A stretch of DNA of 64,000 bases, from positions 11,596,591 through 11,660,590 of the forward strand of contig CAJINV010000002.1 of NCBI GenBank assembly GCA_905178155.1, read 5' to 3'. Shown piece after piece: positions 17,869 to 62,418 of this stretch (position 1 is the stretch's first letter; every line of letters begins with the position of its first letter). Origin of the DNA: Amoebophrya sp. A120 (Eukaryota; Protista; Dinoflagellata). The notes under the pieces are model-generated. The model saw only the letters and a list, made by a program, of their open reading frames with translations, searched no databases and was not told the origin of the DNA. A program made the translations under genes and the position numbers.

Positions 17869-20800
17869 TCAAGCTGCCTGCTGCCTTTGTCGCAGCAACC
17901 GTGGCGCATCGACGCGATACTCCGAGCTATCGTCCACGTTCGACCCCGGATCCAAACAGTCAGCGTACAGCCATCGTGGGATCTCACAGGTTCTCCCGTC
18001 CTCCTTTTCGTCGGGCACGTCATCGTTGAACATCTGGTCCACAATCTGCGACCGGGTGTAGCTGTCCACCTCGTTCCTTCGCACCCGGAAGGAGGGAATT
18101 TTGGCCATCCAGTGCCGAATTCCGCCCGTGGACTGTTGCTGTTCGCTCTCGCGCATTCTCTGCGCGTACGCCTCCGCCTGCGTCTGTGCGGGAGTAGTCG
18201 ACCCAGAGGACTGCGCGAACGACAGATCCCAGACCGTTGCGGGGGTAATCGTTCCGTCCTCGTAGGCGAGTGCACTATCATTTGGATTTTGTTGAGTAGT
18301 GACTCCGCCCGCAACAACTACAATTTCCTGGGGAGCTACTTCACCGGTCATCACGCGTGCGTTGTTGCGTCTAGCGCGACCAGACGAAGTTTCCGAGGAA
18401 CTGGAGGAAGTCGCCGAGAAAACTTCTTGCTGTTGCTGTGCTGTCGTGCTGCTGGGAAACAAGGTCTGCTGAGCACCTCCGTAGTTGTTATTCGCGCGTG
18501 CCTGTTTTGGATTTCCGTCGTATCCTGATTAAAAATGTCCCCACACCATGGTCAAGATGGGGAATTTTTTTTTTTTGCCCGGCCCCCAATTTTCAATTGT
18601 ATTGTATTGTATGTGATTGTGTGACGGCGGGAACGGCACCCGCCCGTTGTGCTTAAAAATGCGCTCCCACGCGCGAATCTTTTTCATCTTTTGCATTACA
18701 CATGCACAAACATTTTCAACCCCCTAAACCAACAGCATTACTCATCTTCTGCTGCCCGCACGCAACAGAACTACTCCTGAAGCGCGGGAACAACCCGGAG
18801 GTTGTTTTGCATCACAAGTTCTGCAGCAGGGTGCATGCAGCAGTGGGAGATACAAAATTAAATATTCAAAACCCTAAACCCGCACAACGCACTCGATCCT
18901 AGTTAACGTCCAGAGCCGTAAGCCGCGGCAGACGTCCACCAGGGGAGGTAGAGGGAGGTCAGATCACAGTCTCCGTAGGGCGATAAGTGCAGTAAGCCGC
19001 TGCACTGAAAGATAGTAAAGATAGGGAGAGACCACTGTATAAAGAGATAGTTGCGCCTAGTGCGCGCTATTCGGGTCGAAACCCGAAATATATGGTCGAG
19101 CTGGATCACAGATACTAGCCATAGGGCGCAGCCGACCCGAATCGCATTAATAGAGGCTGCGCGACCTGACGAAGAACATCATATGACCCAAGCCGAGGGA
19201 CGTCAGTGAAAAATACTCCGGACGCGTGTGCAGCCTCGGCCGATGCAAAACGGGCGACCGCTGTAAAATTTGCAATCTACTGTAGAATTATTTCTAAGTG
19301 GTCTCTTTAGGGATGGGGGCCGTTGAACCCACGACGAGGGGGGGCGGGGACCGTTGAACCCAGAGTGCTTTCTTATCTTCCCCGCGACAAAATCCGCTGG
19401 CAAGGCGGAAAAAAAGACAGCTGCCCCTGCAAGAACGCGGGATGCGCGGGCTAGCGCTAAGAAGGCAAGTCAGGCAAAACAACAAAACTAAACGACAGAA
19501 GATATAAAAGGGTAGAGATCTAAATCTACGTGGGAAAACGGGGGCAGATGGGAAGATCGAATTTTATAAAGCAGGAGGAGCGCACGAATTTACGATCAAG
19601 CTCCTGGAGACAACGAACGAAGAGCGACACACGTGCACGAACCGACGCTGCGCAGTAAGCCGCTGCGCATATAAATTTTTCATCATTCAGTTATTCTAGG
19701 AGGCCGGTGTGCGTTACTTAACATGTGATGCAGTTCTACGAATTCACCTGCCTGCCGCAGCAGGTCAAACAGGGCCGACACCTTTCACACAGTTAAGCAG
19801 TGCGCGTGTATGCGTGCATTTTTGTTTTTTGCTCTTACTATCGACGCCCGGTCTTGCAGGGCTCTCGCCCTGTCGTTCAATTCAATTCAATTCATGGAGC
19901 GGCCCCGTGCTGGAACACTTCTGATGGTGGACGTGAGCGCGAGATTTGCGGCTTCGCGCCGCGGCGACTAAATGGGGGTCTCGCCCCCCACCCTCCGCTT
20001 TCAAGAATCCCGTTTGTGCGTGCATGCTGCAAAACTACCACAACGTGGCCAAAATGAGTGCAAGCTCTCATGCACCATACACAAAAAGAACAAATGAAAA
20101 TCATCAGGAGGAGATTGTAGACCGCAATTTATGACGCCAGTGGCAGCTAAAACCCGAACGGCGGGGGGGTATCTACCGCGCCGAGCGCGCGGATTCGTTT
20201 TTTCGTGTCGAGCCGGTAGCAGCGGCACACGCCACATGGTTCCATCTCGCAGCCTCCGGAACAATGTGGAATGGGGATAGCAGTGCGGGGGGATACTATC
20301 TACTGCGGCTTCGCAGGGCCGGATTTTGTCATGCAAGTTTTTTGTCGTGCAAGTTCTTCGATAGTGCCAATTTTCTAGAGCTAACAAGTCACCGCGTCAA
20401 GTCCTAAGCGTCACCCGCAAGCCATTTAGAAACTGCGCGACCTGAATTTTTTTTCTATCTACTGACCCGGTAGCAGCGGGCGAATTCGTGCAACTAGGAA
20501 ACTACACCGGTCACATGAAGCAGTTAAAGCAGATAGCAAGCAGGGCGCTTCTAGTAAAACCAATAAAAGTTGTCATGCAAAGCCGGAATACAGCATGCAT
20601 ACAAGCTTTCATGCGAACCTAACACCCCCCCAAGCAACAACCCGCTGGCTAGGCGGAAAAAAAAGAGAAGCCCCTGCGAGGACGCGGGGTCCGCGGAACG
20701 ACTAGCGCTACAAGACGTGGATCAAGTAAGATTTTCATCATTCAGCTATTCTAGTCGGGGCGGTGGGCGTTTCCAAAAATGTGAAGAACCCCGCCCACCC

Positions 20801-22304
20801 TCCATGTTATTCACATATAAGGAATTGCGCAGGTATACGGCGTTTTTTTTTCCCGATATCTTACTTTTCCGCTCTTGTCCCCTGCTCCAGCCTGCTGATT
20901 CTCGCTCCACTTTCGTACTGCGCCCCTTGTTCTCGTTTCGCCTCCGTTTTCCCCCTCCTCCCCCGCGTGCGTATGCCCAGCGGCCTAGTATTCCTCATTC
21001 TGTGGCCCCAACGACACGCGCAGATCTTGCAACCCCCCGCCGGCTTCGTGTGGTTCCGTCGCGCTCGGTGTCGTTTTCAATGTTTCCGACTCCGCGTGCC
21101 ATTCTCCATCATGATTATGAATTCTAATACTTGTGCAATGAAGTGACGCGAAACTAATCCAAAGATAATGACAAAGAGAAAGCGTGAAGAAAGGCCAAAA
21201 AAATAAAAAATGTTTGAAGCAAGATAAGTATAGGAACGCACTACCATCATATTTGCATTTCTAACCCCCGGCGTTGCCCCACGTCCCACAGCCAGCCGCT
21301 GCTGGAAAAAAAAGAAAACTCCCTGGCGTGTTTTATTTATAGGCGCAGCGGGTGGGGGGGACCACATTGGCCCCCCCCGCACGCTGCTAGTGTGTTGAAG
21401 TATCTGCTTCGTCGCTTTACATGAGCCTAAGTGAATACGTTTTGTTTTACGAAATGCTTTTCCTTACGAAGTGCTTTTCCTTACGAAGTGCTTAAGGAGT
21501 CAAGATGGGGAATCGGCTAGACAAATCCACAAGTTTTGGTTGCTTTGCATCACAAATTTGGACTCGTAGTGTAGTGCTGTTTGAGCTAGCTCAGCAGCAT
21601 CACAGACCTAGCACACCATGCTGATTGGAGCATGACAAATTGGAAAACACGACTAGAAACTGCTTCTCATGGGGCTCCGCATGAGAAACATTTTCAGCAT
21701 GCAGATTTGCATTACAACTATGGGGTGGGGACGTTTTTAAATAGGATACGTCGAAATTGATCGTCTCTTCCAGCCGCAGCTGCGGCAAGGGAGTATCAAA
21801 TGTAAAAATGTCTGGGTCTGGAAGGTTGGAACTTGTCATGCTAACTCTAAATGATGCAAATATCTGTGTTGCGTGAGTGCCAAAAGCTGTCCGCTTTTGA
21901 CCAAGTTGAGAGGGAGTTTCTCATGCAGGAAAGGCATGATAGAGACCTCAAAGAATCTGTCATGCTGGGCCTCGCATTCCAGACCTCGTGGGTCATGGAA
22001 AACATGCATCACAAACCTGGCATTCTTCCAGACCCAGACATTTTTGCATTTGATAGGGAGAGCAAACCAGCAACTCGGGTGCAGTTGGCGGCGGAAGACT
22101 CACTGGGTAACTTCTTGTTTCATGATCCTGGGAGGTGCCGGAAAAGTACTCACTGCCCATGTTCCGCCGACGGAGCGGGCTGGGGACCTCACTAGCGGGA
22201 GGGAGCACGGACTGGACGCTGTTGCGCGACAGGTTTCCGATCGCCTGGTCGGGAGTCAGGCATCGGTCGAGCAGGCTGGACACCGGGGAAGCAACGGGTG
22301 GCAA
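17869..22304 (-). CDS. Hypothetical protein interrupted by two TIR elements; 5' end unresolved
   Basis: Removing 21794-22055 and 18521-21748, each with one 5-bp repeat, gives continuous ...ELLVCSP-LPQLRLEETINFD-GNPKQARANNNYGGAQQTLFPSSTT..., in frame with ORF 17869-18462. Confidence 0.65.
18521..21748. mobile_element. Family B TIR introner-like element expanded to 3228 bp by a nested insertion; TSD CGTCG
   Basis: Left end TATCCTGATTAAAAATGTCCCCACACC at 18521. The remainder at 21499-21748 differs from 37386-37635 at only about 6 positions. CGTCG at 18516-18520 and 21749-21753. Confidence 0.9.
18566..21498 (-). mobile_element. ~2.9-kb non-coding retroposon-like insertion with poly(A) tail and 15-bp TSD
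   Basis: GTCAAGATGGGGAAT at 18551-18565 and 21499-21513, single in the intact element at 37356. T12 tract at the left edge. 17-bp tandem repeat at the other edge (21447-21493). No convincing ORF. Confidence 0.8.
21794..22055. mobile_element. Family A TIR introner-like element, 262 bp; TSD GGGAG
   Basis: 31-bp TIR TATCAAATGTAAAAATGTCTGGGTCTGGAAG. GGGAG at 21789-21793 and 22056-22060. Confidence 0.93.
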
Positions 22305-24898
22305 CCTGATGACCGAGGTTTGAAGGATCTTTCAAAGGGTCCGTCTTCCAACCGCACTGAGAGAAGTTCCTTGCATGTTATAGGGACGAGCCAAAGCACG
22401 GTAGTACATCTACGAAAAAAAGAGCTCTGGTGAGCGTGTAACTATTCTAGAAGCAAGTAAGTACTTGCATATACCTTTCGTCGTCTCTGTCATCGGAAAC
22501 GCTATGTCCCGCCGTTGAGTAGGCCCGCTGCCGCGGCCGAACAACATGCACCTCCGTTGCCGTCTCCGTGGCGGTTGGCTGCGAACAAAGACCTGTGACG
22601 TCCAGGGAATGACTGCTCTCGTAGTACGTCCGCAAGGGCGGAGCTGTCTGGACCTGGTGAGCGTGATTCGTGCCTGTGGTCTCACAGAAGCCGGTAAGGA
22701 GGGAAGGCGCTGTAGTTTGGAGATCGGAATGAAACAGTTTCACATATAGAACTTGTCATGATAGAGCTAGAACAGAGAACTAATTCGCCCGCAGCTCCGA
22801 TAGATTATCAAACGATTTTCATCATTCATTGTGGCGCACTCGTTTTTTCTGGCTATTGGAGACACCTGCAGCTTGTTCACAGCTTTCTTCCACCAACGCT
22901 GGTATACCTCTCGAAGCTTGAAGGTTTTGCTGCTGCAGGCGTGGGGTGACAATCCGTTCCTGCGCCTCACGTTCGTGCTGCAGAAGGTCGCGTAGAGAGA
23001 AAATCGACATCTTTACGATTACGTTTCAGTCTATGCATGAACATCCATAGCAATACCCAAAGCCGAACCCAGCTAAGATTTGTCTTTGTGGGATAAAAAA
23101 ATAAAAACTGTACGGAAAGCGACGAGACTTCGTCATTTCTTTTTCACCCATCGGCGACCAAACGTTTCAAATAATATGGCACAAGAGCGAAAGATACCAC
23201 ATGGCAACTACTCGGATCCTCATTTTCGCACGTTTCCTTGCGTATCAACTCTTCGTCGCTTTGCAACATATCTCTACCGCACTGCAGATACTCACACGAC
23301 CGCTCGAAACGCTCATACGATGGCGCTATCCCACGCGACAGTCAACGGGGAAAGGGAAAGCAGATAGAGTATATCACTCTGGAAACAAGAAGAGCCTGGC
23401 GGGTCTCAATAGCGACGCCCCCCTGCTCTCTCGGGGAGGCGCCACCACGGAGTGCGCCTACGCGTCCAGTTGCTTGATGAATGTGCTCGCCGTATATGCG
23501 TAGCAGTCGTTTGGTTTTTCACTATACTTGGTTTCAATCGTAGTCGTTCCTTGTTTCAACACCGGTAACGTCACTTTCAAATCGAATCATCTCGTTGTCT
23601 ACATTCGCACGACACCCGCACCATTCTGCTAGAAACGCTCGATCATTCCTGTTAAGTCGCCAACAACCTGCATCGCCGCGCAAAGCCCCGCAAATCCAAA
23701 AAGCATTTGCACTTTCCAGATCCTGTTTTATCATTTTTTGCAAACATTTCATGTCGAGCCACCATGCTCATTTGTACGCTAAACTAGAAAAGATCGCACC
23801 TGTCATATGCCTCGCGCTCGCCCTCTGTATATATGTACAAACTTGTGGCTCCATATACTAGCACTACGGTTCTCCAACAACAGAAAGTACAGCTCCAGGG
23901 TTGCTTTTGATGGCGGTTCGGTTCCTTTTGGCGGTTCGGCTGGAGCTGCCTCTTTTTTCATGTTCCACATGGCTTGTGTGTTTCTTTACCGCAAAGAACG
24001 GTAAAACGGGCGATTTATCTTGCAACTTCCTCAAAACTAGCGTACACACACACTCTTCAAGACAGTCACAGGATATGGATAGAACTTGGATGCTATTGGA
24101 AAAACGCAATAAATTCGATCACAAAGCATAAATATCAAACTTCACAACTCTTCTTCGCACAAAAAAAAATCACAGACCGTGCCGAGAATGGACCATCAAG
24201 AGACCTGCTTCATCATCATCGGGATCGACGTTTTTTCAGTGGATTCAAAACAAAACAAAAACTCCAGTGCGTCGTGACGCCCGCTGCCAATGATCTTACT
24301 TGCTGCCATCCAGCAAGAGGAGGATGCCTGTAAGCTTTAGAAAATACGGAGATCGATCTCAGTCCGCCGCCGCGACAACACAACGCAACGGCCTTGAAGA
24401 TTTTCCATGCAAAAATGAATCTCGATCTATCTCCGGTGCATTGATGAAACTAGTCGTGCTGCAGATATCAACAAGTGGGAGAACACCACAGTGCTTTCAC
24501 GGCGCAGCCATATCGCAGAAAGAGCGCGCGGTGCGGAGCAAGTTACTAAATAACTGGTTGTTTATTCAAGAGGTTTAAGTAGCAAGTTCAAAAATGAAAA
24601 TCTCGTTTCAAAGAAATGTACAGCTGTATCCTAATTTCATCGGGTTTCGTCTTTCACTCACGCACTCTCGCGATGGTGTGCAACGAAGTTCCATTTCCAT
24701 TCTGTAGGTTGTTATTATCCGTCTATCATTTTGCGCTTCTTGCAAATCAATGCAAGTCAAACAATTTCATAAAACGATTCGCATAAATTACTAATGTCAC
24801 TCTGTTCAAAATTCGAATCCCGCAAGCAGATTTGTCAGGAAAACAACTATCAATCCGCGAATTATAGATCTAGCGTCTCGATAATTTGTGTAAATTTA

Positions 24899-27245: not shown

Positions 27246-30200
27246 TCAGCTGTCGAAAATTCGAATGCAGGCGATCGCCGGCTCGCGACACACGGGGCAC
27301 GACCAGGTCGCGCGCGGCTGGTTGGTCAGCAGCTCGCGCCCGCAGCGGGCGCAGACCACTTTGTGGCCGCACGGAATGAACGCGTGCGTCCGTCGTCGCT
27401 CCAGGCACGCACAGCAGAGTTCTCTTTCGTCCAGGCCCGCGACGTTTTCCCCTTCATCCTCGTCTTCCTCATCTGCGCGTGACACGTTCGGAATCGGGTT
27501 AGCAAACAGCGCCGACTGGGAGGTGGTGGACCCGAGAAAAGTGGAGGGGTTAATTCCCCCCTGCACTAAAGTTCCGCCGTGCCCGTCGTCCGCGGGTAGT
27601 GGTCGCGAGCTCATTATGCGGATTCGCCGCGAGTTCCGCGGCAACAGCATCTCCGGAAATTCGAACTGCCCCATGGAAAAGTTTCCCTGCGAGCGGTTCA
27701 CCGCGAGCGGCAAGTGCGGCGTCGGGCCGCGCCCCGAATCCACGGACGAATTCGGAGATCGGATGGGCGGGCCCGTGTTGGTGGTCGAGTGATGTTGTGT
27801 GTTTAACGACGATGCCGACCAGATGATGTGCTCATCGAGCGAATGGACCACGGGCTGTTGCTCCTCGTCCTCTTGTTCCTGCAGGCGTTCCTGCGCGACT
27901 CCTATCAGAGTATGCTGCGGAAAAGGTAGTTGATCAGAAGCTGTTGCAGCCTCTCCAGCTGAGACCGTCCTTCCGACGGATGCTAGCGACTCATAGGATG
28001 GATCGCCAGCCAGTCTCGGGGCGGGCGGCGAGGCTACCGGGGACGCCTTTGGCCGCGGAATGCGCACGGAACCGGCGAGAGACAAGGAGGTGAAACTTTG
28101 TTCACGACTAGGGAGTTCTTGCATTGGGACTTCCTCAGGAAACAAGTGGTTGACTGGCTGCGAAGCCACCGGCGGTCGGACCGGCGCACCAGCACCTGAC
28201 GCGGTTGGTATCGGGTCCATTTCGTCGGGAATCGTGCTGTGCTCTTCGTCGATGATGACCGTAGAACGCTCTCCCATCGAGCCCGAGGACTGCACGGGGA
28301 GAAGACCGACAGGTTCTCGAAGTTCCTGCTGCAAAAAGTGTGTCGTGCCTCGGTTTGGCGTTGGCGGAAAGTTGTTGGTTGTGCCTTGTACTACGTGAAG
28401 ACTCGTCCCTAGTCGTCCAGTCGAGAGGTTATTGAGCGGGCCTGCAGGTGTTGCAGCTGCTGCCGTCGCAGTTGCTGTGCTTGTTCCACCGAATGCAAAC
28501 AACCGTTGCATCATCGTGCCAAACACACCAGGCTGCAGCTGCTGATCGCGAGAGGAATCGGCCCCGCCTCCGAACCGCAAGCCAATCGACACTATCCTGA
28601 GTAAAAACGTACCCACCCCAGAGTTGTCATGCAGATTTGCCATGACAGGAACATTTGTGATGCGCAACCCCATGACAGGCCTTTTCAATTGCGTTTGGGA
28701 ACTTGTAATGCTGTAAACAGGATCAGCAAATCGATTTGTGATGCGGCTTTCCTTGCTAACTTGCACTACCTTACGGACTGAAACTTGTCATGCGTGACTC
28801 CCAAAACTCCTAGGTTTGTGTTGCAAAATCCCCATCTTGACTCTGGTGTGGGTACGTTTTTACTCAGGATAGACACCGTTGCAGATTCACCCGCGAGGTT
28901 GAAGGCCGAAACTGTGATCAAATAGTCCCCTGGCTCCGGCATCGCGGCCTGTACTGGAATGTCGCAGGAATCCAAAGCCGTGTTGCGGCACACCAGCACC
29001 GTTTCCCGAGAGAGACTCCCCAGATCGCTACTGGCCGCGGCGACGCGGACCAGCACGCCGTCGGCCGGTGGACTGCGTGCCAGGCGCACCTCGATGCTGA
29101 TGGCCCCCGCGGCCCGATTCTTCGCTTTCTTCACTGTCGTCGGCGGCTCCGGTTTCTGCAGGCCCAGCAGAACCGCACAGAAGACCTCACGTATCCGTTC
29201 TGCCTCGTCGCGCTCCTGCTGCTCGTAGTGCATTTTCACGGTTTCAACCATTTCAGATTCGGGCACGACGAAGTACCGGCTCAGACGCGTGTTCAGCGAT
29301 GTGTGCTCCCCACTGGTGAGCAGTGTTTCCTCTTCATCGAGCATCATGGGAATCACCCGACTACTTCGGACCTCTCGTGCGGCGGGCGCAGCGCTACCGG
29401 CGGTGTTTTCCCCGCCTCGCGGCCGGGTACCATTGCGTAGCACTCGTTGCTGGAGTGGATTTGAGGTACTGCTTCGTCGGCCGTCGAGCATCAATGACGC
29501 CTCACCATCTTCCGTTGCGGCATTCTGCGAGGGCGCCACGACGGCAGAGGCGAAATATTTGTCGAAGAACAGTAAACGCCAGAGCATGGGTTCGAGCAAG
29601 TGCAGCATCTGCCGCAAATACACATCCAGGTCAATCCTCCGTCGCTCCGCAACCTCATCCTCTTCCCCAAAAATCGCGGCGACCACTTTCGAATGCTTCT
29701 CTGGAAACGAGGGCACCGCCGGGGGCGTGTGAGAGTCCACTGCTGTGCTCTTGCGATTCTGTGAGTTCGTCGAAGTATTACTAGACACGCCTCCTCCCGC
29801 CGCATCTCGGGGGACAAGGCTCAGCACTCCGGTGGTTTTTGCGACACAAGGTTCCAAAGTCACGGGAGCAGCTGCAGCGGATGCTTCGAGTCCGGCTCCT
29901 CCTCGCAGCATTTTGAACAGAAACCGTCCGTCTGCTGGGCCATTTTGATTCACCGCGGCGGCGGAAGTAGACGCGGACCCCCTCGGCGGAGGCGGCCTGG
30001 TACTCGAGGAGCTCCCACCTTCCTGAAAATTGGGCGAAACTACCCCAGAAGCCGTCGTTGGCGCAAGCAAGCTGCTCAACAGCCCCCCGGGTCCCGCAAA
30101 GTGGTCCGCCCCGGGCGAACTGGTGGAGCTCCGCACCTGCAACCCGGTCGTCGGAATGCCCTCTTCGCCGTGCACCGCCCGCGTCGCGCGGTTTTGAAAC

Positions 30201-30478
30201 ACGCTGTACTCTTGCTGCAGGTAATCGTTGTAGGGAAGCAACAGCCGGCAAATCTCGTCGTGGGCCTCCTTGAGCACCGAGTACCGGCGCCAAATGCCAT
30301 ACTCGCTGGTGGACCGGTGTTGGAAGGTGAAGTGATACTCGACAAAGTCCTCAACGAAACGCGTATCGTCCACGCTTGCGGCCAGTGAATACCCGAACTC
30401 CGTAACCACGGGCTGTCTCGCCTGGGTGTCACCGCCGGAACCACTGCTGCCGGAAGTATACTGTTGGAGATGGTCCAT
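27246..30478 (-). CDS. PX-like, FN3-like and C-terminal RING-HC protein; one gene split by the element at 28593-28871
   Basis: PX motifs IWRRYS, FPEK and ERRRIDLDVYL; FN3-like PGDYLITVSAFNLAGES; RING CCAC...FIPCGHKVVCARC...CPVCR. The two ORFs fuse as ...ESATVS-IGLRFGG after element removal. Confidence 0.8.
28593..28871. mobile_element. Family B TIR introner-like element, 279 bp, inverted relative to other B copies; TSD GACAC
   Basis: TIR TATCCTGAGTAAAAACGTACCCAC. GACAC at 28588-28592 and 28872-28876. Confidence 0.93.
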
Positions 30479-31354
30479 GATGCATGCATTGTGTCACACC
30501 ACATGAGAATTCGAGCTCCTTTGTTTCGGACTGCTTCTGCGTCTGCACGTATAGTTTCTGAAAACACTCTCGATCTCTTGTCACCCCGACGAGTCTGTGC
30601 TGTGCCGCATGATATGGCCCGGCGCAGCACCACTCTTGCTTTCAATTTGTTATCTCTCTGTCTCTGCTCTCCCTCCACAGCCAAAAGATAAAAAAAGGAA
30701 AAGAACCTACATGCTCACGAGCACACAATTGAGGCTCTGTGAGGTGCTCGCCAATACATTCGATCGCGTGCTAAACGAGAGAGTTTCTCTTTTTCTGCTC
30801 ATGCTTTATTCTCAGATTAATACCGCAGTGTGCATACATTCAGAGAGTTCATTCACAAGGTTCCAGCAAAACGCTAGAGTAATCGACTTCCCGGGTCGCA
30901 AGGAAGCACACCCGCACGACCCGCCTCTACTCGCGCTGTATTAACAAACTTCTAATAACCAGGATACTAGCAGTTAGTATTTGAAATAAAGCAGAACGTG
31001 AGACGTTTAGACCCAGCAGGAGAAACAGTTAGTTGTCTCTCATCTACCAGTCATTCGTGCGCAGATAGCACTAAACGAAGATAAGTGTCAATTTCTGTTT
31101 CGGTAAATTATTCCATTTAGTTTTTTTAGCGTAAGAAGAACAAGTTTGTAAGTGGTTTCCATTCGAGTTCTAGTGTTTACTCAATTCGCGATGTTTCTAA
31201 AGTGTTTCATCTCGCACTCGCTTGTCAAAGCGAACACGTAGCTGAAGACGCATCTGTAAATGGTACAACTGCATTTGAGGAAGGCTATAATAAATAGCGA
31301 GGGAGTTCTTGCCTTGAAAGATTCATTCTGAATATTTGAAAACGAAAAACTTCA

Positions 31355-45072: not shown

Positions 45073-46114
45073 GTTTTCGTAGTTCTCGCCTTAGGTGGAG
45101 CGGTAAGACGGCGATCGAGATGACCGGAGGTGACACGCGTTGTCTCTCGTCCTGTTTACGACTTACAGAAATCCGGGGTCGAGGCCGGGTGGAGCGGAAG
45201 GACTTCTCGTTTGATGACAACTCCGGCGGCGGCGTCGTCTCAGCGCTTTCGAGCCGGTGCTGGCAACAAACATAGCTTTTTTCTTGCAATCATTCAACAG
45301 CAATTATATGTCTTCACTCTCCAAAAAACAAGCTCCTGGGGAAAGCAGAAATCCAATTTTTCTCCATTGCAAACGAAAAGTATTCGGGCTCTCTCGAGGC
45401 GCAATGCGACACGAACGAAACGATTTTCGCTCCTCCCTCATGTTTCTCCTTCTTGTCCGGTCCCGGAAAGTGTTACATCGCTCGACTCAAACGTGCAAGC
45501 GTGATTACAAGCAGACGCAGAAGGAGAAGTGACGAGAAGCGATAATGACATAGCTGCAGAGTCAAACCTCCTTGGAAAGCGACGCTGAAAGAGCTAGAGC
45601 ATATGGCATCGGCCCTTTTGCATGGGTTTCCGCCTGGCAAAGTAAAGTGACGACGAATCATCAATTTCTAAAGTAGCTTGAAAACAACGAAAGGCTCGCA
45701 TACTTAGTACAATGTTCTTTTGTCGCTTTGAATTAGGGGTGGTAGTAGTGTCACATCCTGTTTGCTTGAGGAAGCGTTAGTTACGTCTCGCATCATCATA
45801 CACATCACTCTGTCTGCACCTTGCTATACCTGCCGTTGCCGATACGCGCTTGTGCATGTTTTCATCAAATTTTACAAATCGAGGTCTATAGCGAGGCAAA
45901 TTCTCCTACGAGGTACATACAATATTCACGAAGTAACAATTGATTCAGTCTACGCAGAATTAATCCTCTAGGTCCTAGGTGGAATACTAGATACAAAAGA
46001 TCATTGATTTTGGTACAAAAGGCTAAGACTCTGATTCGTACTAGCAGTTGGTACAAGGGTGCGCTGCTTTTCGAACGCGAAAATTTTCCTGTCGATTCGG
46101 TGACAACAAGACAG

Positions 46115-52051: not shown

Positions 52052-55000
52052 TTATTGTTGCGCACACGACTCCTTGTTGATGGAGTCCCGCCTGGTGCCG
52101 CTGGCCTGGACGAAGGACCGCATGTCGGAGTGGCCTTTCAAAACGGACTGACGTTGCGCTTTCTCCCCAGCCTGAGAAACGCGCACCATTTCCAGCTCCC
52201 GCTTTAGCTCGTTGATGATCTGGTCCTTCTTTTCACTTTCCTCTTTCCAGAAATTCATCTGGTTGCTTTTCACACCGTAGTCCTTCACCTCGCGGGAAGC
52301 CTCGCGGAACGACGACTTGAGCGTGTTATTCTCCTTCCGGAGCCGCTCCACTTCGACCTGCTGCCGTTCCCGTAATCTTCTTTCCTGCAGCAGGTCCTGC
52401 TTCGACCCGGTGAGCGCGTTTTCGGAGCTCAGCTGCTGCACGAGCGCCAGCTGCTCGTCCAGCTTTTCCTGGACCTGCACCAGCTCCATTTCCTTCCGTT
52501 TCAGTTCCGTGTTAGCCTCCCGGGCGGTTTCCTCCAGTTTCTCCTGCTTTTCTTCGCTCTTCAGCAGCAACGAACGAAGCTCCTCGACCTGCTTCTTTTG
52601 GGTCTGGAGCATCTGGTGCGTGGACGAGGCCAGGGTGGAATCCTCCTCTCTTGTAATCGTGGTCGCAGATCCCAGCCAGTCTTCGACGTGCTGGCGCTTG
52701 ACCCGGTCCATCTCGCGCTCTAGCTCTTCCACGCGCTTTTTGGCGGCGTCGCGGGCATCCGCCGCTTGCTGTAACTGCTTCTTTAGATTCTCGCGCTCCG
52801 CGGTTACCTTCGTTTTTTTTTTTCGTTTCATGAAATTATTAGAAATGTTCTTGAGCTCGTGTTCGTTGCAAAGTTAGTCTACGCTGTGCGCCTACAACTT
52901 GCTGAAATACTTACTGGAAACCGAGCATCTACTTTCGGAAGCACCATGCTCATTTTGTTTTTTACTTGAGTTGCATTGGCATTCGCTTGGAAGGTAGAAA
53001 AAATTTTGTGCGTACCTGTGTCATCAGTCCGCCCAGCTCTGTGGCATCCCGGTGGATTTGGTCTACATCACCGCATCTTTCCTCAAGTTCGCTATTCCGT
53101 TCTCGCTCTTCTTTCAGCTGCTCCTCGAGCTCTCTCACCGCCTTGGAAAATTGGTCGCGCTCGCGCAGCACCGTGTTCAGTTCAAATCGCGCGTCCTGGT
53201 TGTTCACCCGGGCCTGCGATAGCGCGCCCTCCACCTCTACGAAGCCAGTTTTCAGTTGCTGTGCTTCTTGCAGCCGCTTTTGGTAATTCGTTGTCTCGGC
53301 CTGCGCCTGTTCGACCTGCTTGTGCAACGTCTCCGCCTCGTTTTCGAGCGCCAGCAGCTGCGCCTTGCCCTGGTGAATTTGCGCGGTGAGCTTGTCCCTT
53401 TCTGCTGTTACAGCGAGCACCGCCTGCTCGGATTGTTGCAGTTGTTTCTGTGCCGTTTCGTACTTCGCTACCGCTTCCTCCTTTTCCAAGCGCAGCGAAT
53501 TGCTGTCTTGCTGAAAAGTCTGCTGCAGCTCCTGATTGAGTTTTTCCGCCTGCTTCTTCTCGATCTTCACCGCACTGAACTCTGTTTGCAACTCTTCCAG
53601 CTTTGCGCTTTCTGCGGTGAGGGTACTCTGCAGCGAGCAGATTTCCTGGTTGCGCCGTTGCACCTCGGTGAGTGCGTCGTCGCGAGTTTTCTTCAGCTGC
53701 GAAAGCTGGGTCTCCAGGTCCGTCAACTGCAGCTCTAAGTGTTCCCGCTCGTCGAACAGCTTCTTCTTTTCCTCGGCGTCTCGTTCCCATTTCTGTTTCT
53801 GCATACGGAAGTCCGCGAGCTCATTGTCTTTCTTGTCGGTTTCCTCCAGGAGCTTCTCCGCCTCGCCTACGACCTCCATGTTCTCCTTGGCCCTGTTCTC
53901 CAGCTCAACTTTCGTGTTATTCAGCTCCTCCGTTAGTCTCGCCACTTCCGTGGTGTTCTCGTCGATCTTCTCGTACGCTTTGGCGAGCTCCGCCGTGTTT
54001 TTCGCAACCTGCTGCTGCAACTGCTCGACCATCCGAACCTGGCTCTCCATGGCGTCACTCTCCGTCTTCTGCTCCTGCAGGTCTAAGAGCTGCTGCTGCA
54101 ATCTCGTGATCTCTTCCTTATTGGTTTGTCCCAACGCCTGACTGCGTCTTTCCAGCTGAGTTTTCGCAATTTCCAGTTTCGCCAATTCGTCCCTTTTCTC
54201 GCGGACTTCAAACGTTAGTTGCCGCTCCTTCTCTTCAAATCGGTCGCGCAGCTGCTGCGTCTCGGCGGCGGCCGCGCGCGCGACCCCGATCTCGCGCTCC
54301 AGTTCCTCCGCTCGGGCCTGCGCCGCGCGCCCGTCCGCTATTTGGCTCTGGTAGCAACTCAGCTGGGCCTGCAACGCCGCTTTCTCCTCCCGCACGGCGG
54401 TCAGCTCTCGCTGTCGCTTCTCATTCTCCTCGCGAACGGAATTAGTTTTCGCTTCGTTATTCTCTCCGCTAGCGGCCAACTGCTGGCGCAAAGAATCGAG
54501 TTCTGCCGTCAATTGGACAATCTTTTCCGCCTGCTCTTTGATCTCAGCATCGTACTCGGCCGACACGGTCTCCACATTCTTCATCATTTCCTCTAGTTCG
54601 GCACTCTTTTCGTTTTTCACGGCTTCGATTTCTTGTTCCATGTGCGTGATTTCGCTCGTCTTTTTGTTCAGCTCCGTGTTCTTCTGCGAAACTTCCTCTA
54701 CGAGCTCGTTCCGCTCGTCCTGGAGTGCTTCCACCTGCTGCGCGAGCTGCTTTTCCCGTTCCTTCTGAGACAGGTCCTCTGTCACAAGTTTCTGGTGGAC
54801 CTGTTTCTCCGAATGTCGCAGCTTCTGCTCCAGGTCCTGCTTCTCCTCGAGCAAGACCGCTTTTTGCGCACAGGCATCGTTTATTTCGTTCTCCAGCTTC
54901 TGGGCCCGGTCTGTGTCGGCCGCCAGCAGCTCCTGCTCGCTGGCCTCCAGCTCGGCAATGCGTATTTCGAGTCGCGCGACTTTCACGCTCCAGTCGTGTT

Positions 55001-58000
55001 CCATTTGTTTCTCCGCCTGCGCTAAGCGCGTGGCGAATTCGGCCTCCCGCTTCGCGTTTTCCTGGTTGAGAACCTGTTCCTGTTGGGCAAGCACCTGGTT
55101 CTCGAACTCTTCACGACTCTGCAGCTCGGCTGCGAGCTCCCCACTGGTCCTCTTCGGTGTGTTGAAAACTTTATTTGCTGTGGAGGAACTCGAGCCGCCG
55201 ATCTGCAGCAGTCCTCCAAAAGCAGTCTTCACCCCGTTTGGGTGCTGCACCACGGGTTCGCCCACCAGAGATTTGCGGCTGGAGCTTGACGCCGACCCAG
55301 CTTTGTGGTTATTTTCCTGGTTCACAAGTTGCACTCTGTTGCCAAACCTGGGACTCGCCGGAGAAGTCAGCTTCAAGTGCTTTCGCGGACCTGGGCGCGG
55401 CTCATCCGAATCGGTGCGTTGCCTCTTTCGAGCCTTTTCCTTTTCCAGCTCCTCCTCTACAGAACGAGCCCGCATGCGCTCGGTAGCGTTCGATTGCTTT
55501 GCAACTGCGGAAAATTTTTTTATTCCGAGAAAATAAAGACCTGCAAATGCGATTCAAACTCCTCTCTTTTACTGCGCCGCTTTTCGACCACATCAACGAA
55601 ACGCTGTGCGACAACAAGAATGAAAGTGAAACACTAAAACAAACACTTCTGACAGACAAAAAAATAAAATAAACGGAGTCACGGAAACGGAAACGCTGTC
55701 AGACAAAACTCATCAGGCAATACCATTCAGATCTCGGCCCATCTTGCCCAGATGATCGCGCAACGACGATTCCTCGCGACTTCGAAGTTGCAGCTCCTGC
55801 TCCCGCTCCGCGAGCTGGTTGGCCAGGCACTTCACCTCGCCCTCGAGATCGTGTATTCGGATTTTCTGTTCGTTGTTCTTCTCCTCGAGGTCTTTACAGT
55901 CCTGCTCAATCCGGCGGTTCACACTGTCAAACCACTGCAACCGGCTTTCGAGTTCGCGAATTTTCTTCTCCTTCCCGCGCTCGTTTTCCTGCAGGTGTTG
56001 CAGTTGAGAAAGAAGCGAATCCCTCTCCTCACGGGTGAACAGGGGACTCGGGTTGGCCTGTTGTGCTTGTGCGGACATGTCCCGCACCAGCTGCAAGTCC
56101 GTGCGCGCTTGCTGCAATTCCTCCTCCAAAGCCCGAATACGGCCTTCCAGCTCTTTCTTCTCCCTTAGGAGTTTCATTAGTTGCTCCGTCTGCGTGGCGT
56201 TAGTAGCGCTCGCGCTTCGTGCAGTGGGCATGGCGGAATCTTCATCCATGTCCTCGTTCTCTCCACTTTCGTCCACCTCCGCCAGTGACTGTCCGTTGAA
56301 AGCGACGGCCTTCTGCTTCTTCACGCCACCTTTGTTGACACCGCGCGAGGTAAAGCTGGAAATCTGCAATGGTGGAATTTGAGTTATGTTTGGAGACACA
56401 ATGAATGTCAGGATGAGACACGGAACTAGATATCTTCTGCAAATACGCGAAAGCAGCCCGCGGCACAGTCAGAGGACAGTGACACACGCATTGGGTATTG
56501 CATGCAACGCCTTCAGAAGGCAGTAGTGGATGAAATTCAAAAATGCTGAAATTCTTTATACTGGTGATGAAAACACTGGAAGATCGTTTTTTCCACCGAC
56601 AAAAAAGGTGTGCCTCCGGTTCGGCTCCTTCGCTTTGCGGGGCGTGTGCGTCAATTTCTCTCCAGGGAGCGCTTGCAGGATCTTCGGCATCGTGCCCTGG
56701 AGGTTGGAAATTTGTTCTTCCAAAGACATCTTTTCCCGCAAAATTTGTTCTCTCTGCGTTTTCAGCTCGTTGTTCTCTGACGACAGAATAGCCACTTTTT
56801 CCCCGCTCGTCACGTCGGCCAGTTTTTGTTTCAGCTGGGATATTTCGGCGAGGAGGCGCTTAACATCCATTTCATGGTCCTGGAAAACGTTCACCTTGAC
56901 CTTGTTCTTGATCTGCTTGGCCCGCGCCGCGAATTCCAAGGTCGATTTAGTTTCGGGGTAGTTGGACGGTGCACCCGATACGGCTGCAATAATGACTGTC
57001 TGCGCGTTCCCGCCCAGGCTGGTCTGCAAAATCCTGGTCAGTTGCGACTCGCGAAAGCCGACAAAGTTGTTTTTCTCCGAGAGCTGATTGATCACTTTTG
57101 TCAGCGAAAGCAAACTCTTATTGATATTCGCTCCCTCCACGCGACGCTCCCCTGGCAAATGTTGTAAAAGTGAGTCATGGATTTCAAAGTACTGGTGTTG
57201 AAATGATCGCACTGGAGGCAGCTGCATAAGCCTGATGCAGTTCACAAAAACATTCGGATTCCAATGGCAAGCGAGTGCGAGAGCCACAAGAAACAATAAA
57301 CACAGCGTACCTGTGGCCTGGGTGCGTTTCAAACCTTCACTTCCTGCCAAATCGACCAGGTGCAACACGGACGTGAGCACCTTTTTCTTGTTTACCCCGC
57401 CTCTGGACTCGAGATGCAGACGAAAAATGGTGTGCGACCGAGACGAGCGCTCGTTCATGCGCGTTTCACCAATGTGCCGTTTCTTTTCCCCGCGGACCAG
57501 ACAGTCAAATACCTCCTCGCAGCCCCTTTCCCCTATCTGGACCTCAGTTAGACCCTGGATGTTCAGCGTCCCATCTGTCCGGTCCTGAAGCTTGATCTGC
57601 GGCGGGGCCGAAGTGGACGCAGGAGCCAGCAGATCAATGACGTTCTCATTGTAAATTTCCAAATAGCTGACGGTTAGCAGGTACTCGGTTTCGGAACTCT
57701 GCTCCTCGAGCGAGTTACTCATGGCGTCATTCTCCTGGTCCTGCTCCCGCTCGCTCATATCAAATGCAAAAATGTCTGGGTCTTGAAACTTGTGATGCTA
57801 AAATGTGACTGGTGGGCGGACTGCAATACGCAGCGAAGCATGACAAATTTTTCAACTACTACTGTGCCTCGTTTTCCGCATGACAAACTGCGTTTTTGCA
57901 TGACAGGCAAGAGGCCATTTTCCTGCTCATGCATTACAGATTTATGAGTCATGCCAGACAAGCATGACAAACTTGCATTCTTCCAGACCCAGACATTTTT

Positions 58001-58584
58001 ACATTTGATAGCTCATCTGCTGAAACATCTCCAACACGGCGTACGGGATGATCCCGTGCCTTCGCTGGTCGCCGTGCATGGTAAACGTCTTCCCACTGGC
58101 CGTCTGGCCGTAGGCAAATACCGTCCCATTGAACCCCTCCAGACAGTTGTGCACCTAAAGGATGGATTGTATTCAGCCGATTGAAGATCAACACGGCTCA
58201 CGAGAACCTACACTCTAGAAAGAACCATTCCATTACTGTCTGTGCGACATCAACATGATCAACACATTGAAACAACTCAACAGCTGCTCGTGTGTGGAAA
58301 TCATGGAGTACGGAACAGACTACTGGGACTTCTGTGTAGTTGATGTGTTGTTGAGAAAACTTAAATTTGACAAAATTTTTTGGTACGATTTCCTTCACAT
58401 GATTGTCGAAAATTTCTCGAGTGTTCGACTTCGGCGCGTACACCTTGTCAAAGGTCCACTGGCCGTGACCGCCGGCGTTGTCGCAGACACTATCCTCGTC
58501 AATCCGCCATGTGGTCGCGTCCTGTTCAATTCCGCGGTAGTCACGGTATCTGATCACCACCGAAATCCGGCGATCCTCCGACAT
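52052..58584 (-). CDS. Kinesin-7 (CENP-E-like) motor with long coiled-coil tail; multi-exon
   Basis: [39 protein letters not shown] and [13 protein letters not shown]. Downstream coiled-coil ORFs 55713-56399, 52962-55475 and 52052-52831 are joinable by GT-AG introns. Confidence 0.88.
57758..58010. mobile_element. Family A TIR introner-like element, 253 bp, in the kinesin motor domain; TSD GCTCA
   Basis: Family A TIR. Removal gives [17 protein letters not shown]. Confidence 0.93.
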
Positions 58585-59641: not shown

Positions 59642-62418
59642 CTAATAAAGTGCTAGAAACAACGCCATCCGCTGAAGCGCGCTCAATTCGTTTTCGACTT
59701 CCATTGGATCTTCCTCACCGTCTGTCAAGCCTTCCCGCTCCACAGCAAGCACCTGCACCAAGTTTGGCCAAACCGGATCTTTCGCCAGGGGACGCACCAA
59801 TTCGTCGTAGAGGCTCTTTACCTGCTTCTTCTCCTGGAACAGCTGCAAAATCGTATCAACTTCCAATCGCAAATCTGCAAAGAAAAGGTTTTGCCAGGAA
59901 AACACCATCTTCTCATTTCCCGGCGCGGCGTGCGGTAGCATGGTCGCGCTCTCAGCGAATGATTTTTCGACCTGTGCGTACGAAAACGTTCTTACTGCCG
60001 CAATCGCGAGGTGCGCGCGAAAGACCAAAAGCTCTCGAATCGCCAGCTTGTTTTGGAGAACGCGCTGGAGCAGAGGCGCTACGGTTTCATGCCCCGCAGA
60101 ACTCGCAGGATCAATTTGCTCCTTCATGACCTCCTCGAAACCACCCACAAAAGTATTGCGATCTCTGCCTCGAAAGGCAAGCTCAGTGGTGTCGCCTGCG
60201 CCTCCCAGTCTCAGGTGTGCCGCTGCAAGAAGCTTGTCCGTCTGGAAAAAAATCAGCCACGTCCACAACCGCGCTTCGAAGTCCCGTTCTTGATGCACAT
60301 GTATGCCGGCATCTTTCCCTTCCGAAATGCGGGCGCCTGCTTCTTGCTGCCGTCGATCATTATTTGGCCCATCAACCGGCACAGGGAGAAACGTCGGAAG
60401 ATTGGCACGAAAAACTATTTTGCGCTGAAACTCATGAAGTAAACTTGGAAGGAAAACCGCAAGCTGTTTTGTGGACAGGAAGTGCTCGCCCCAAATTTTC
60501 CGATTTCTTCTTTCAGCGTCGTTGCTATCGCCATTATTTGCGGAGTCTGGCACGACGAGGAAAATGATCACGTCCCGCAACCGCCGCTCCAGACCGCGGA
60601 AGTAGGTTGCAGCCTTCTTCTCACTCTTCCCGAAGTCGTAGTCTAAGTTCTCAACCACGCGCCACGGTGCCGTGGCTACCAGTTTGCCGTCAAGCAGCAC
60701 GAAGCCACCAGCGGCGTCTTTGTGTGAAGATGATGTTTTTGAAAAAACATACTCCGTCACGACTTCCGCTATTTTCTCCTCCTGCGCATCCAGTATTGAA
60801 GAAACCCCCAAAAGCTCATCAAACGTGTTCTGGTCGCGCACCTGCTGAAGACAGAACCCGGCGACTCCTCTAAGGGTTTGCGCTGCACGGAGCCACTCCT
60901 CGTCGACGCGGGTCCGCTTGTTAAGCGTGTCTGTGATATGCAAGAAAAAAACTCTGTAAGTGTAACTTTGTCTTGCAGATGTTGCAATACAGTTACACTT
61001 GTCATGCCGGATATGCATCAGAGGCTATTTTAATCACGTGTTTTCGCGTAGTAGCTACGCATGACAGGTCAAATCTGTGATGCTGTTCCTGCAAAAAAGT
61101 TACACTTACACAGTTTTTTTCTTGGATATGTGAGATCTTTGCTGTACCGTCCGAGGGCATTTTGGTCCTCCATCGTCCCGACGCGCGGCTGCGAGAACAA
61201 TGCTTTTCTCAGCTTCTTTTCCTCCCGGTAGTGGAACTTAGAAAAGTTTTCGCCGTGCATGTACATCGCAAGAGAAATCCCGAACTCCACCCGAAATTTC
61301 GCCGACGAGCGGGGAAGCCACCGGGCGAACAGCTGCTCTGTCAATTCCAGCGCCCTCGCGAAGGCCGCGGAAGCGGGGAGCTCGTGCGATTTCGAGACGA
61401 GTCTTTGAACCGGGAACTGTTGTCGCCCGAAGCCCTTGCAGTTCAACAAGGTGCAAACCTGGTTCTGCGCCAAGAAGAGACTGAGAATCGCGGTGATTTT
61501 GTCAACATCGGAGTTTAGCAGCAACGCAGTTCTGTCGAGAGGAATTTGAATCCCCTTCTGCGGCACGAGCGTAGTTGAGTCCCCTTTTTTCCGGTACGGA
61601 TCGAACAGTGCAAGAACGTGGAACAGAAACGGGGTCTGAATCAGCTCCTCGAGCAACTTCACGCGGTGGCTGCTCGACCAGTCACTGTCCGTCCGCAGCA
61701 GCAGCCTCGCTAGCAACTGCGGTTTCGGTACCACGAGACTCGCAAACGGTTCGGAGTAGGGAACGAAGTCCGTGCGGCCGTGCTCGTCGATAGTTTCGAC
61801 CAACTCCTGTAAAGTGGCCGGCTTTTTTTCGCGAATGCGCCGCGCCAGCTCGCTGTCGGAATACGCGATTGGCATACTGTCGTACAAAATTTCCTGCTCC
61901 CACAGTGCTAGTGGCTGATGATTCTGCGCCCGCGCCTCGCGCCACCCGCGGAACTTTCCGGTCGTCGTTCTCACCACTGTTTTCGAAAAAGCATTTTTTC
62001 TGCTGTCTTCGAAAAGTTGCAAATGTCCTCGGCTCCCTTGCGAAAGCAGCGGAAATGGGTCATAATCGGCCACAGTCGTGCATATGCTTCGATCGCAGGC
62101 GGGTCTCGTTCTTTCCCGCACCAGCGAAAAAGCCTTCCTGCGGACGGCTTCACGAAGGTCCTCGCCTGTTAGGTCTTCTTTACCTGCTGAAGGACCACAC
62201 AAGAAGCTAGCGCTGACCGACCCAAACGGGTGCAAGACGAAAAAGAGGCTACTTCCAAAACCGAAGGCCTTGAACTCAGGAAGCAGCATATTGGAGATTG
62301 ACTCGAACCAAGACAAGGACAACCAGTAGCACGAAATGCCAGAAAACGTTTTGATACACACAACTAGAGATAAAACTACGGCTTTGGCCTTTTTCGTCCA
62401 CAGAATCCTGGCCGACAT
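59642..62418 (-). CDS. Hypothetical protein; two ORFs fused across the family D element, start uncertain
   Basis: ORFs 61069-62418 and 59642-61018 join as ...GRYSKDLT-DTLNKRTRV after removal of 60937-61128 plus one TGTGA. Confidence 0.7.
60937..61128. mobile_element. Family D TIR introner-like element, 192 bp; TSD TGTGA
   Basis: ~33-bp TIR TAT(G/C)CAAGAAAAAAACT(C/G)TGTAAGTGTAACTTT. TGTGA at 60932-60936 and 61129-61133. Confidence 0.9.

What the first reader, a model, noticed from the sequence alone, without database searches (positions are those of the whole stretch)
18516..61133. Ten TIR transposon-like elements sit in exons and must be removed precisely without GT-AG signals
Seen: ten elements (starts 18521, 21794, 28593, 37356, 37674, 38132, 48115, 48425, 57758, 60937), nine of them 192-321 bp. 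Each has 31-35-bp terminal inverted repeats and a different exact 5-bp direct repeat. Deleting the element plus one repeat restores the protein at every site, including conserved genes (CFAP47, kinesin motor, SERF). I slid the boundary through all six equivalent registers and none of the ten gives GT-AG or GC-AG, although neighbouring introns in the same genes are ordinary GT-AG. Known: introners, and inverted-repeat non-canonical introns in Amoebophrya, have been reported, so the general phenomenon is not new. Inference: a second, end-directed removal system works alongside canonical splicing, and I know of no established mechanism for it.
Basis: partly seen in the sequence, partly recalled or inferred. 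Interest (0 to 1): 0.92.

Follow-up and report, generated by a model that had tools for sequence, protein, structure and literature searches.

The report
Hairpin transposons cut from Amoebophrya mRNA
Ten hairpin-ended transposon copies without normal splice signals interrupt genes of the algal parasite Amoebophrya A120 and are likely cut from the RNA by measuring from their paired ends; the elements are already published, but the enzyme that removes them is not known.

Summary
The window is Amoebophrya sp. A120 (its kinesin exons match an A120 protein), and the ten elements carry the published A120 introner end motif, TAT+7 nt+AAA. All have an exact 5-bp duplication, in-frame stops and no GT/GC-AG register. 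A spliced contig lacks exactly the three CFAP47 elements (by length) while DNA keeps them; six of ten rest on reading frame alone. Added here, from 309 more copies in related loci: they sit in either orientation, show no enrichment for GT-AG targets, and one in five has a mismatched duplication that marks the cut. Three such sites could be polarised and together suggest a cut 1 nt before and 4 nt after the hairpin, a register the 2021 paper left open. Poly(A) inserts recur at one internal motif. Likeliest: end-guided RNA splicing by an altered spliceosome; a separate nuclease-ligase is a close rival; reverse-transcriptase skipping is not excluded by cDNA. The scan noted similar elements in other genomes, none on this DNA.

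The parts
18521..21748 (.). Element, family A; 280-bp core 97.6% identical to 37356 plus nested insert; repeat CGTCG (18516-18520, 21749-21753)
   Evidence: flanking segments each score best in the joined frame; no RNA evidence
18566..21498 (-). Nested 2.93-kb insert, poly(A) tail on the minus strand, 15-bp duplication (18551-18565, 21499-21513), no coding signal, no Rfam family; likely a non-LTR-type retroposon
21794..22055 (.). Element, family B; repeat GGGAG; 40-nt mini-exon separates it from the previous element
28593..28871 (.). Element, family A, opposite orientation to 48425 (85.7% identical); repeat GACAC
37356..37635 (.). Element, family A, in CFAP47-like gene; repeat ACGCT
   Evidence: absent from spliced contig by length
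37674..37994 (.). Element, 321-bp family, in CFAP47-like gene; repeat CAAAA
   Evidence: absent from spliced contig by length
38132..38394 (.). Element, family B, in CFAP47-like gene; repeat GACCG
   Evidence: junction gapless against 7 of 7 homologs that span it
48115..48364 (.). Element, family B, in SERF-like gene; repeat AGCAG; outer arm tips mismatched
48425..48704 (.). Element, family A, in SERF-like gene; repeat TCGGC
57758..58010 (.). Element, family B, in kinesin motor domain; repeat GCTCA
   Evidence: the deposited A120 protein P0010 has exactly this junction
60937..61128 (.). Element, 192-bp family; repeat TGTGA
17872..22331 (-). Host frame (320 codons after removal), no Pfam family in the part scanned
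27249..30493 (-). Host frame (987 codons after removal), RING finger at its end
34569..45185 (-). CFAP47-like host gene (approximate extent), with canonical introns and three elements
48032..48817 (-). SERF-like host gene, 81 aa after removal of two elements
52055..58584 (-). Kinesin host gene matching A120 protein P0010; five GT-AG introns and one element
59645..62445 (-). Host frame (868 codons after removal), no Pfam family

Best explanation
These are copies of the Amoebophrya A120 introners, small non-coding transposons with inverted ends and a 5-bp target duplication, and the cell likely cuts them from the pre-mRNA by measuring from the hairpin that their ends are predicted to form, probably with an altered major spliceosome. 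Shown: identity with A120, anatomy, high copy number, presence in DNA, exact absence of three from a spliced contig, insertion in either orientation, no use of GT/AG. Inferred: a transposase acting in trans inserts them with a 5-nt stagger; in the transcript the 30-35-nt arms pair; one cut falls about 1 nt before the 5' arm and the other about 4 nt after the 3' arm, so that exactly one copy's worth of the repeat is left and the first intron bases read N-U (U at +2, as in GU). Because the two offsets sum to the duplication length, any insertion in an exon is healed at once, which explains how tens of thousands of copies are tolerated. Which catalyst does it is the weakest step. Confidence: 0.97 that these are the published A120 introners, about 0.85 that removal is on RNA and end-guided, about 0.5 for the whole statement including the spliceosome.
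For: A120 identity: kinesin exons 99.6-100% identical to P0010 where no intron is included. End motif, repeats and mean length as published. RNA: contig X6 record 9 has 165 letters between 37350 and 38395, which is 1044 minus 285, 326 and 268; its outer pieces stop at the repeats with no element bases; the same run skips GT-AG introns, so it is spliced cDNA. DNA run X1 runs from flank into element without other letters at 37383, 38369, 48144, 48680. Related loci (same species: 100% to A120 protein P0130): 240 of 309 copies have an exact 5-bp repeat; 147 of 159 sites with independently callable frames fit keeping one 5-nt copy; both orientations occur (family B 54:37, A 7:5, other 27:30; also in the window); GT/GC-AG registers 10 of 148 against 13.5 expected. 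Arms pair in 9 of 9 short elements, z -5.1 to -8.8. Register: L026:3767 keeps the upstream copy at repeat positions 2 and 4 (K in A120, A25 and a third strain; only registers 4 or 5 fit P0130); L026:5294 keeps it at position 1 (G in 117 of 120); L052:5513 keeps upstream at position 1 (M in 74 of 79 and 103 of 131 homologs) and downstream at 5 (P in 0 of 79 and 0 of 131; R in 5 and 19). For the spliceosome: nearly all its proteins and U2, U4, U5, U6 were found in A120, U1 was not; the first T of the 5' arm was changed in 0 of 203 copies against 4 of 203 in the 3' arm (not significant); all nine commonest published A120 non-canonical sites have T at +2.
Against: No test here touches the catalyst. 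All RNA evidence is cDNA, one contig, with the two mini-exons inferred from length and not displayed; the raw-read runs X9 and X10 had no reads on the exons; no RNA piece across the two SERF elements was displayed (tables cut); five elements were never laid on RNA. The register rests on 3 of 61 mismatched copies and assumes one fixed register; L026:5294 also has a GT-AG option at register 2. The codon-score test over all 35 usable mismatched copies was null (10:6 for positions 1-4, p 0.45). Mismatches fall at third codon positions in 24 of 41 cases, which fits a variable register as well as a fixed one. The arms show no excess of G-U over A-C oppositions on the sense strand (112 against 132, p 0.22), so selection for an RNA stem is not seen. 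No branch-point signal common to both orientations was found: the A seven bases before the inferred 3' cut is changed in 2 of 203 copies. The T at +2 in the published table may come from the aligner sliding towards GT-AG (BLAT was used; its sliding is recalled).
Confidence: 0.5

Rival explanations
1. A separate, non-spliceosomal system (structure-specific endonuclease plus RNA ligase) cuts at fixed offsets from the stem and joins the exons, releasing the element as a linear or circular RNA, as proposed for euglenozoan non-conventional introns.
For: Neither intron end keeps G or AG, either orientation works, and single changes are tolerated at every terminal position taken over both arms. Euglena introns have a fixed short 5' spacer and a longer 3' spacer (3 and 5 nt), like the 1 and 4 inferred here, and are reported to leave as circles (via a review). 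RNase III or tRNA-splicing-type routes are proposed for diplonemids.
Against: No such enzyme was looked for (no genome held). No sense-strand G-U excess in the stem. The spliceosome is nearly complete in A120 and a tunicate precedent shows a spliceosome adapted to non-canonical ends (via a review).
Confidence: 0.32
2. The junctions seen in cDNA are partly or wholly made by reverse transcriptase jumping across the hairpin between the direct repeats; in the cell the elements are dealt with in another way or less completely.
For: Stable hairpin plus 4-8-nt direct repeat plus no GT-AG is the described signature of such artefacts, reaching up to 70% of reads. All RNA evidence here is cDNA; a search for Amoebophrya with direct RNA sequencing found no relevant paper.
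Against: Unremoved elements put 3-36 stops in conserved genes, so the cell needs some removal. Protein conservation shows which repeat bases are used in the cell. A jump would be expected to keep the downstream copy (inference), yet the A120 model keeps the upstream one at L026:3767 and 5294.
Confidence: 0.07
3. The element is skipped at the DNA or transcription level: RNA polymerase slips from one repeat to the other across a template hairpin, or the transcribed DNA has the element excised as in ciliate IES removal.
For: Orientation does not matter; the arms trend to G-T on the template strand (A-C 132 against G-U 112 on the sense strand; 158 against 129 in the looser set, p 0.10).
Against: DNA contigs cross the element ends without a break at the repeat, though contigs drop rare variants. 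Slippage would keep the whole upstream copy, but L052:5513 points to the downstream base at position 5. Run X6 holds element-containing contigs, which may be pre-mRNA or DNA.
Confidence: 0.08
4. The mRNA keeps the element and the ribosome hops from a codon in the first repeat to the same codon in the second; a 5-nt repeat always holds one whole codon.
For: Arithmetic of the 5-nt repeat (sequence shows directly); L052:5513 would read M then R under a hop.
Against: The dominant contig lacks the elements; at L026:3767 the two codons differ at two of three places; hops of 200-3200 nt over a 30-bp stem have no precedent that I know (recalled).
Confidence: 0.02

Closest known systems
Introner elements of Amoebophrya sp. 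A120 (Farhat et al. 2021, PMC7789003)
   Same: Same genome; ends TAT + seven variable + three or more A; 3-5-nt direct repeats over the borders; mean length about 240 nt; 29,850 copies in 1,954 families; RNA-seq-supported non-canonical junctions; co-oriented gene clusters.
   Different: The paper gives 8-20-nt inverted repeats and variable 3-5-nt direct repeats and leaves the border unknown. Here arms are 30-36 nt, the repeat is 5 nt in 240 of 309 copies, and a 1+4 register is proposed. Orientation independence and nested inserts were not in the sections I read.
A120 TIR-DNA introner families of Gozashti et al. 2025 (PMC12130899), incl. family 38
   Same: Family lengths 149, 209, 252-260, 278, 319-322 bp with 27-33-bp TIRs match the size classes here; family 38 is noted '5-bp TSD, TA/TA termini' with homology to Copia/Gypsy elements, a lead for the transposase.
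   Different: No coding copy was found here (longest in the loci 972 bp). Their 3,852-copy family 3 is classed non-LTR; the nested poly(A) inserts seen here may explain such labels (inference, untested).
Euglenid non-conventional introns (Nomura et al. 2025, PMC12501133)
   Same: No GT-AG, paired ends, MITE-like origin, short 5' and longer 3' spacer around the paired motif, unknown machinery.
   Different: Code is N3-CDG...CH'G-N5-6 then a purine; A120 elements have TAT..ATA, 30-bp stems, a constant 5-bp repeat, and a purine after the inferred cut in only 4 of 10 window sites.
Fritillaria borealis non-canonical introns (seen only through review PMC11282704)
   Same: MITE-derived introns with TIR and TSD removed by an adapted spliceosome.
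   Different: They keep preferred ends (AG-AC, AG-AT) and a preferred target; here the repeat has no base preference.
Falsitrons, reverse-transcription artefacts (Schulz et al. 2021, PMC8240250)
   Same: Hairpin flanked by short direct repeats, no canonical sites, junction seen in cDNA.
   Different: There the unskipped RNA encodes the protein; here it is broken by stops.

Membership tests
A120 introner elements (Farhat 2021) | Host is Amoebophrya sp. A120 | tested here: met
   Kinesin exons match P0010 [Amoebophrya sp. A120]
A120 introner elements (Farhat 2021) | Inverted repeat starting TAT, seven variable bases, at least three A | tested here: met
   All ten left ends and nine right ends match the pattern; the right end of 48115 has one change in the A run
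A120 introner elements (Farhat 2021) | 3-5-nt direct repeat overlapping the borders | tested here: met
   Exact 5 nt at 10 of 10; 240 of 309 in related loci
A120 introner elements (Farhat 2021) | Repeated in the genome | tested here: met
   Summed contig depth 29,000-176,000 over element bins against 26-42 elsewhere (not a copy number); 12-137 near-full-length hits per element in the loci, overlaps included
A120 introner elements (Farhat 2021) | Removed from transcripts without GT-AG | tested here: met
Non-autonomous TIR DNA transposon (MITE) | TIRs, constant target duplication, no coding capacity | tested here: met
Non-autonomous TIR DNA transposon (MITE) | Cognate autonomous element with transposase | tested here: inconclusive
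   None in the window or in 142 loci; none in viral contigs; no whole genome held
Ginger transposons | Ginger termini and Ginger-like transposase | tested here: not met
   Termini are TAT..ATA, not TGT..ACA (Ginger termini recalled); the 2025 paper says family 38 lacks Ginger termini and homology, though its dataset labels it Ginger
U2-type spliceosomal intron | GT or GC start and AG end | tested here: not met
   0 of 10; 10 of 148 against 13.5 by chance
U2-type spliceosomal intron | Branch point and lariat release | not testable with these tools
   No raw reads covered the locus
Euglenid non-conventional intron | CDG / CH'G motif and purine after the 3' end | tested here: not met
   Ends at the inferred register read N-TAT and ATA-NNNN; purine follows in 4 of 10
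Euglenid non-conventional intron | Release as full-length circle | not testable with these tools
   No intron RNA ends seen
Reverse-transcription artefact (falsitron) | Hairpin with direct repeat of 4 nt or more | tested here: met
Reverse-transcription artefact (falsitron) | Unskipped RNA encodes the working protein | tested here: not met
   3-36 in-frame stops per element
Reverse-transcription artefact (falsitron) | Junction absent from direct RNA reads | not testable with these tools
   No direct RNA run listed
DNA-eliminated sequence (IES-like) | Joined form exists in DNA | tested here: inconclusive
   DNA contigs keep the elements at four ends shown; 291 joints not displayed, table 5b not given, one DNA sample

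The most novel reading that the evidence does not exclude
A120 has a splicing activity that reads no terminal dinucleotide at all: it recognises a transposon's paired ends in either orientation and cuts 1 nt before and 4 nt after the stem, offsets that sum to the transposase's 5-nt stagger, so the host's RNA machinery is tuned to undo any insertion of one transposon superfamily. It is a separate nuclease-ligase pathway convergent with Euglena's, and it has opened a safe haven that a poly(A) retroposon now targets at the element's internal motif.
Probability: 0.25. Interest if true: 0.88.

Novelty: already known. Interest (0 to 1): 0.42.

Why it matters
The elements are published, so the window adds no new kind of system. 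The open question behind them is real: about 65% of validated A120 introns are non-canonical, their true borders were left unknown and five searches of the held library found no paper that settles the mechanism (subscription journals are mostly missing). The useful addition is a way in: one copy in five has a mismatched target duplication (61 of 309 at 3-4 of 5), and these natural markers fix the cut register and separate splicing, polymerase slippage and reverse-transcriptase skipping with RNA-seq that already exists. A ruler-type, orientation-blind excision would explain mass intron gain without splice-site co-option and could give programmable, scarless introns.

Tried and rejected
Whole-genome work: no genome held. 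Run search listed no holder on record as RNA; X6 was shown to be spliced only by the lay. X9 and X10 covered only element copies from other loci. The 3.2-kb element as an autonomous parent: rejected, longest frame inside it 186 codons, strongly non-coding in six frames, 15-bp internal duplication and poly(A). Rfam: nothing at gathering score in the window, three chance hits in the insert. Family-B end in viral contigs: 0. Sense-strand G-U test: null. Codon-score polarisation: null; a hand tally of 13:3 in my notebook mixed homology and codon score and is superseded. Weak-base polarisation: no pattern. Third-position test: undecided. Arm asymmetry: positions 1-3 7:8, 11-13 9:16; position 13 alone 2:10, one of six positions looked at. 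More polarisable sites: 23 and 82 flank pieces scanned in Pfam gave one conserved junction (KIN17-like), with no usable solved relative. The A120 protein for L052 was not among 150 representatives. The kinesin junction lies beside an A120-specific insertion, so distant homologs do not test it; two of the three CFAP47 junctions lie in a gapped region. Rows dropped: of 309 copies, 8 with 0-2 repeat matches and 9 with short flanks were left out (292), and 183 passed the strict coding call; loci were chosen by a family-B end, so the sample is biased to dense, young copies. Nearby cryptic GT-AG pairs were excluded only for the three CFAP47 elements and the kinesin model.

Full report
1. Observation. 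Deleting element plus one repeat opens a long frame on the minus strand at all ten sites, and no equivalent register reads GT-AG, GC-AG or AT-AC on that strand. Left in place each element brings 3-36 stops. All long frames with family matches lie on the minus strand. The elements fall into families: A (18521, 28593, 37356, 48425), B (21794, 38132, 48115, 57758) and two singles; both families occur in both orientations, and all carry an internal TTGT-N-ATGC-like motif, 50 times in 5.6 kb against 5 times in the other 58 kb.

2. Source. The kinesin frame finds a protein named Amoebophrya sp. A120; its exons match the window at 99.6-100% wherever the aligned stretch holds no intron, and it has exactly the junction predicted at 57758. 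Its five other introns have GT-AG registers. Farhat et al. 2021 describe, in this strain, introner elements whose inverted repeats start TAT, continue with seven variable bases and end in three or more A, with 3-5-nt direct repeats, 29,850 copies, and state that the border position remains unknown. Gozashti et al. 2025 list A120 TIR families of the same lengths and note a 5-bp duplication with TA termini for family 38. The finding is therefore a rediscovery in the type genome.

3. RNA and DNA. Four runs were laid on 36000-49500. Contig run X6 skips GT-AG introns and so is spliced cDNA. Its record 9 aligns at 36776-37350 and resumes at 38395 with 165 record letters between; the window has 1044, and the three elements plus one repeat each are 879. 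The two mini-exons were not displayed, so this is by length. DNA-like run X1 passes from flank into element with no other letters at four ends shown, and element bins have summed depth of 29,000-176,000 against 26-42 elsewhere. Raw-read runs X9 and X10 had no reads on the exons. No RNA piece over the SERF elements was displayed. So removal is shown for three elements, backed by a deposited gene model for a fourth, and inferred from frame for six. The junction at 38132 is gapless against all seven CFAP47 homologs that span it; for the 18521/21794 host, each of three segments scores best in the frame that removal joins.

4. A larger sample. The family-B end found 144 stretches in one metagenome assembly (142 loci, 556 kb with overlaps), of the same species by protein identity. 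They hold 309 distinct elements: repeat exact in 240, 4 of 5 in 48, 3 of 5 in 13, fewer in 8. Where the frames of both flanks could be called alone, 147 of 159 fit keeping one 5-nt copy (this fixes the length only modulo 3). Among 183 coding sites both orientations are common, the repeat has no base preference, and a GT/GC-AG register exists in 10 of 148 exact cases against 13.5 expected. So neither polarity nor splice dinucleotides are selected.

5. The register. A mismatched repeat shows which copy the protein uses. Three of 61 such copies lie in conserved protein. L026:3767 keeps the upstream copy at positions 2 and 4; only registers 4 or 5 reproduce the A120 protein. L026:5294 keeps it at position 1, but could also be spliced GT-AG at register 2. 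L052:5513 keeps upstream at position 1 (methionine in 74 of 79 and 103 of 131 homologs) and probably downstream at 5 (proline in none of 79 or 131; the best hit has M-R). If one register holds, it is 4: the removed piece is one base, the element, four bases. That puts U at intron position +2 always. Consistent hints: the first T of the sense 5' arm is unchanged in 203 copies while the 3' arm has four changes (p about 0.13), and the nine commonest published A120 non-canonical sites all have T at +2, although the aligner may favour that. Against over-reading: codon-score polarisation was null, third-position share did not separate fixed from variable register, and the stem shows no sense-strand G-U excess.

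6. Mechanism. Shown: exact removal, end symmetry, strong predicted stems. Inferred: cuts measured from the stem with offsets summing to five. The catalyst is open. I favour an altered major spliceosome (0.5) because the machinery is nearly complete but lacks a detectable U1, because of the U+2 hint, and because of the tunicate precedent. A separate nuclease-ligase (0.32) fits the loss of every other signal and the Euglena geometry. Polymerase or DNA-level skipping (0.08), reverse-transcriptase artefact as the main source of the junctions (0.07; signature met, but the genes need removal) and ribosome hopping (0.02) remain. None was tested directly.

7. Nested inserts. The 3.2-kb element is a 280-bp copy, 97.6% identical to 37356, with a 2.93-kb insert flanked by a 15-bp duplication and ending in poly(A) on the sense strand. 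It has no coding signal. Related sequence lies in L043 and L061. Four poly(A)-tailed inserts (window, L043, L061, L063) sit 44-61 nt from an element end, just before the first internal motif; only 1 of 304 short elements has a comparable A run. Two more inserts (L040, L041) duplicate the same motif and one (L022) does not (read). Loose ends in X10 show the insert's other end beside a family-A site. This suggests a retroposon that targets introners; a search for nested cases found nothing relevant.

8. What I read. PMC7789003: abstract, sections 10-12, 16, 25, passages, and supplement text (legends S19-S27, Tables S4, S5, S7); figures not seen and they may already show the 5-bp repeat and orientation. 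PMC12130899: passages and 38 of 58 A120 rows of one dataset; two supplementary files not searched. PMC11282704: passages and section 6. PMC12501133: abstract, sections 8 and 12. PMC8240250: abstract and passages. PMC12621601: passages. Roy et al. 2023, Henriet et al. 2019 and Guminska et al. 2021: not read, seen only as cited in the review. Ginger termini, BLAT sliding and limits of ribosome hopping are recalled.

9. Verdict. The mechanism is an open question, and the mismatched-repeat test makes it approachable with existing data. Interest 0.42.

Noticed in passing
window 18566-21498; L043 about 854-1090; L061 6013-6985; L063 8961-9457: Poly(A)-tailed inserts nested in introners at the first internal motif, 44-61 nt from an end; three share sequence; possible retroposon that targets introners.
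   Followed up: partly
L loci, 183 coding sites: Insertion phase is uneven: 89, 53, 41 (p 4e-5), most often with a whole codon centred in the repeat; unexplained.
   Followed up: partly
all ten elements: Internal TTGT-N-ATGC-like motif, 3-7 per element, first two often 31 bp apart; likely transposase-binding sites (inference).
   Followed up: partly
L026:5294-5550: A change in the downstream repeat creates a GT-AG register, a possible step from non-canonical to canonical intron; not enriched overall, 2 of 35 against 10 of 148.
   Followed up: partly
window 32924-34679: 132-bp tandem array, 13.3 copies, 90% alike, between genes or at the end of the CFAP47-like gene.
   Followed up: no
window 49498-51321 (-): Long frame with a Fic/DOC domain, E 7e-10.
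   Followed up: no
window 38919-40159: The spliced contig holds 464 letters for 1241 bases; this stretch has short imperfect direct repeats and its introns were not resolved.
   Followed up: no
run X1, table 5c: Other loci have elements separated by mini-exons of only 24-40 nt, as at window 37636-37673 and 21749-21793.
   Followed up: no
window 57690-57757 (-): The A120 kinesin has about 15-17 extra residues just after the element junction compared with A25 and other homologs.
   Followed up: no
L052 about 5251-6050 (+): Gene for a bacterial-type UDP-GlcNAc dehydratase (PseB/FlaA1-like) carrying an introner.
   Followed up: partly
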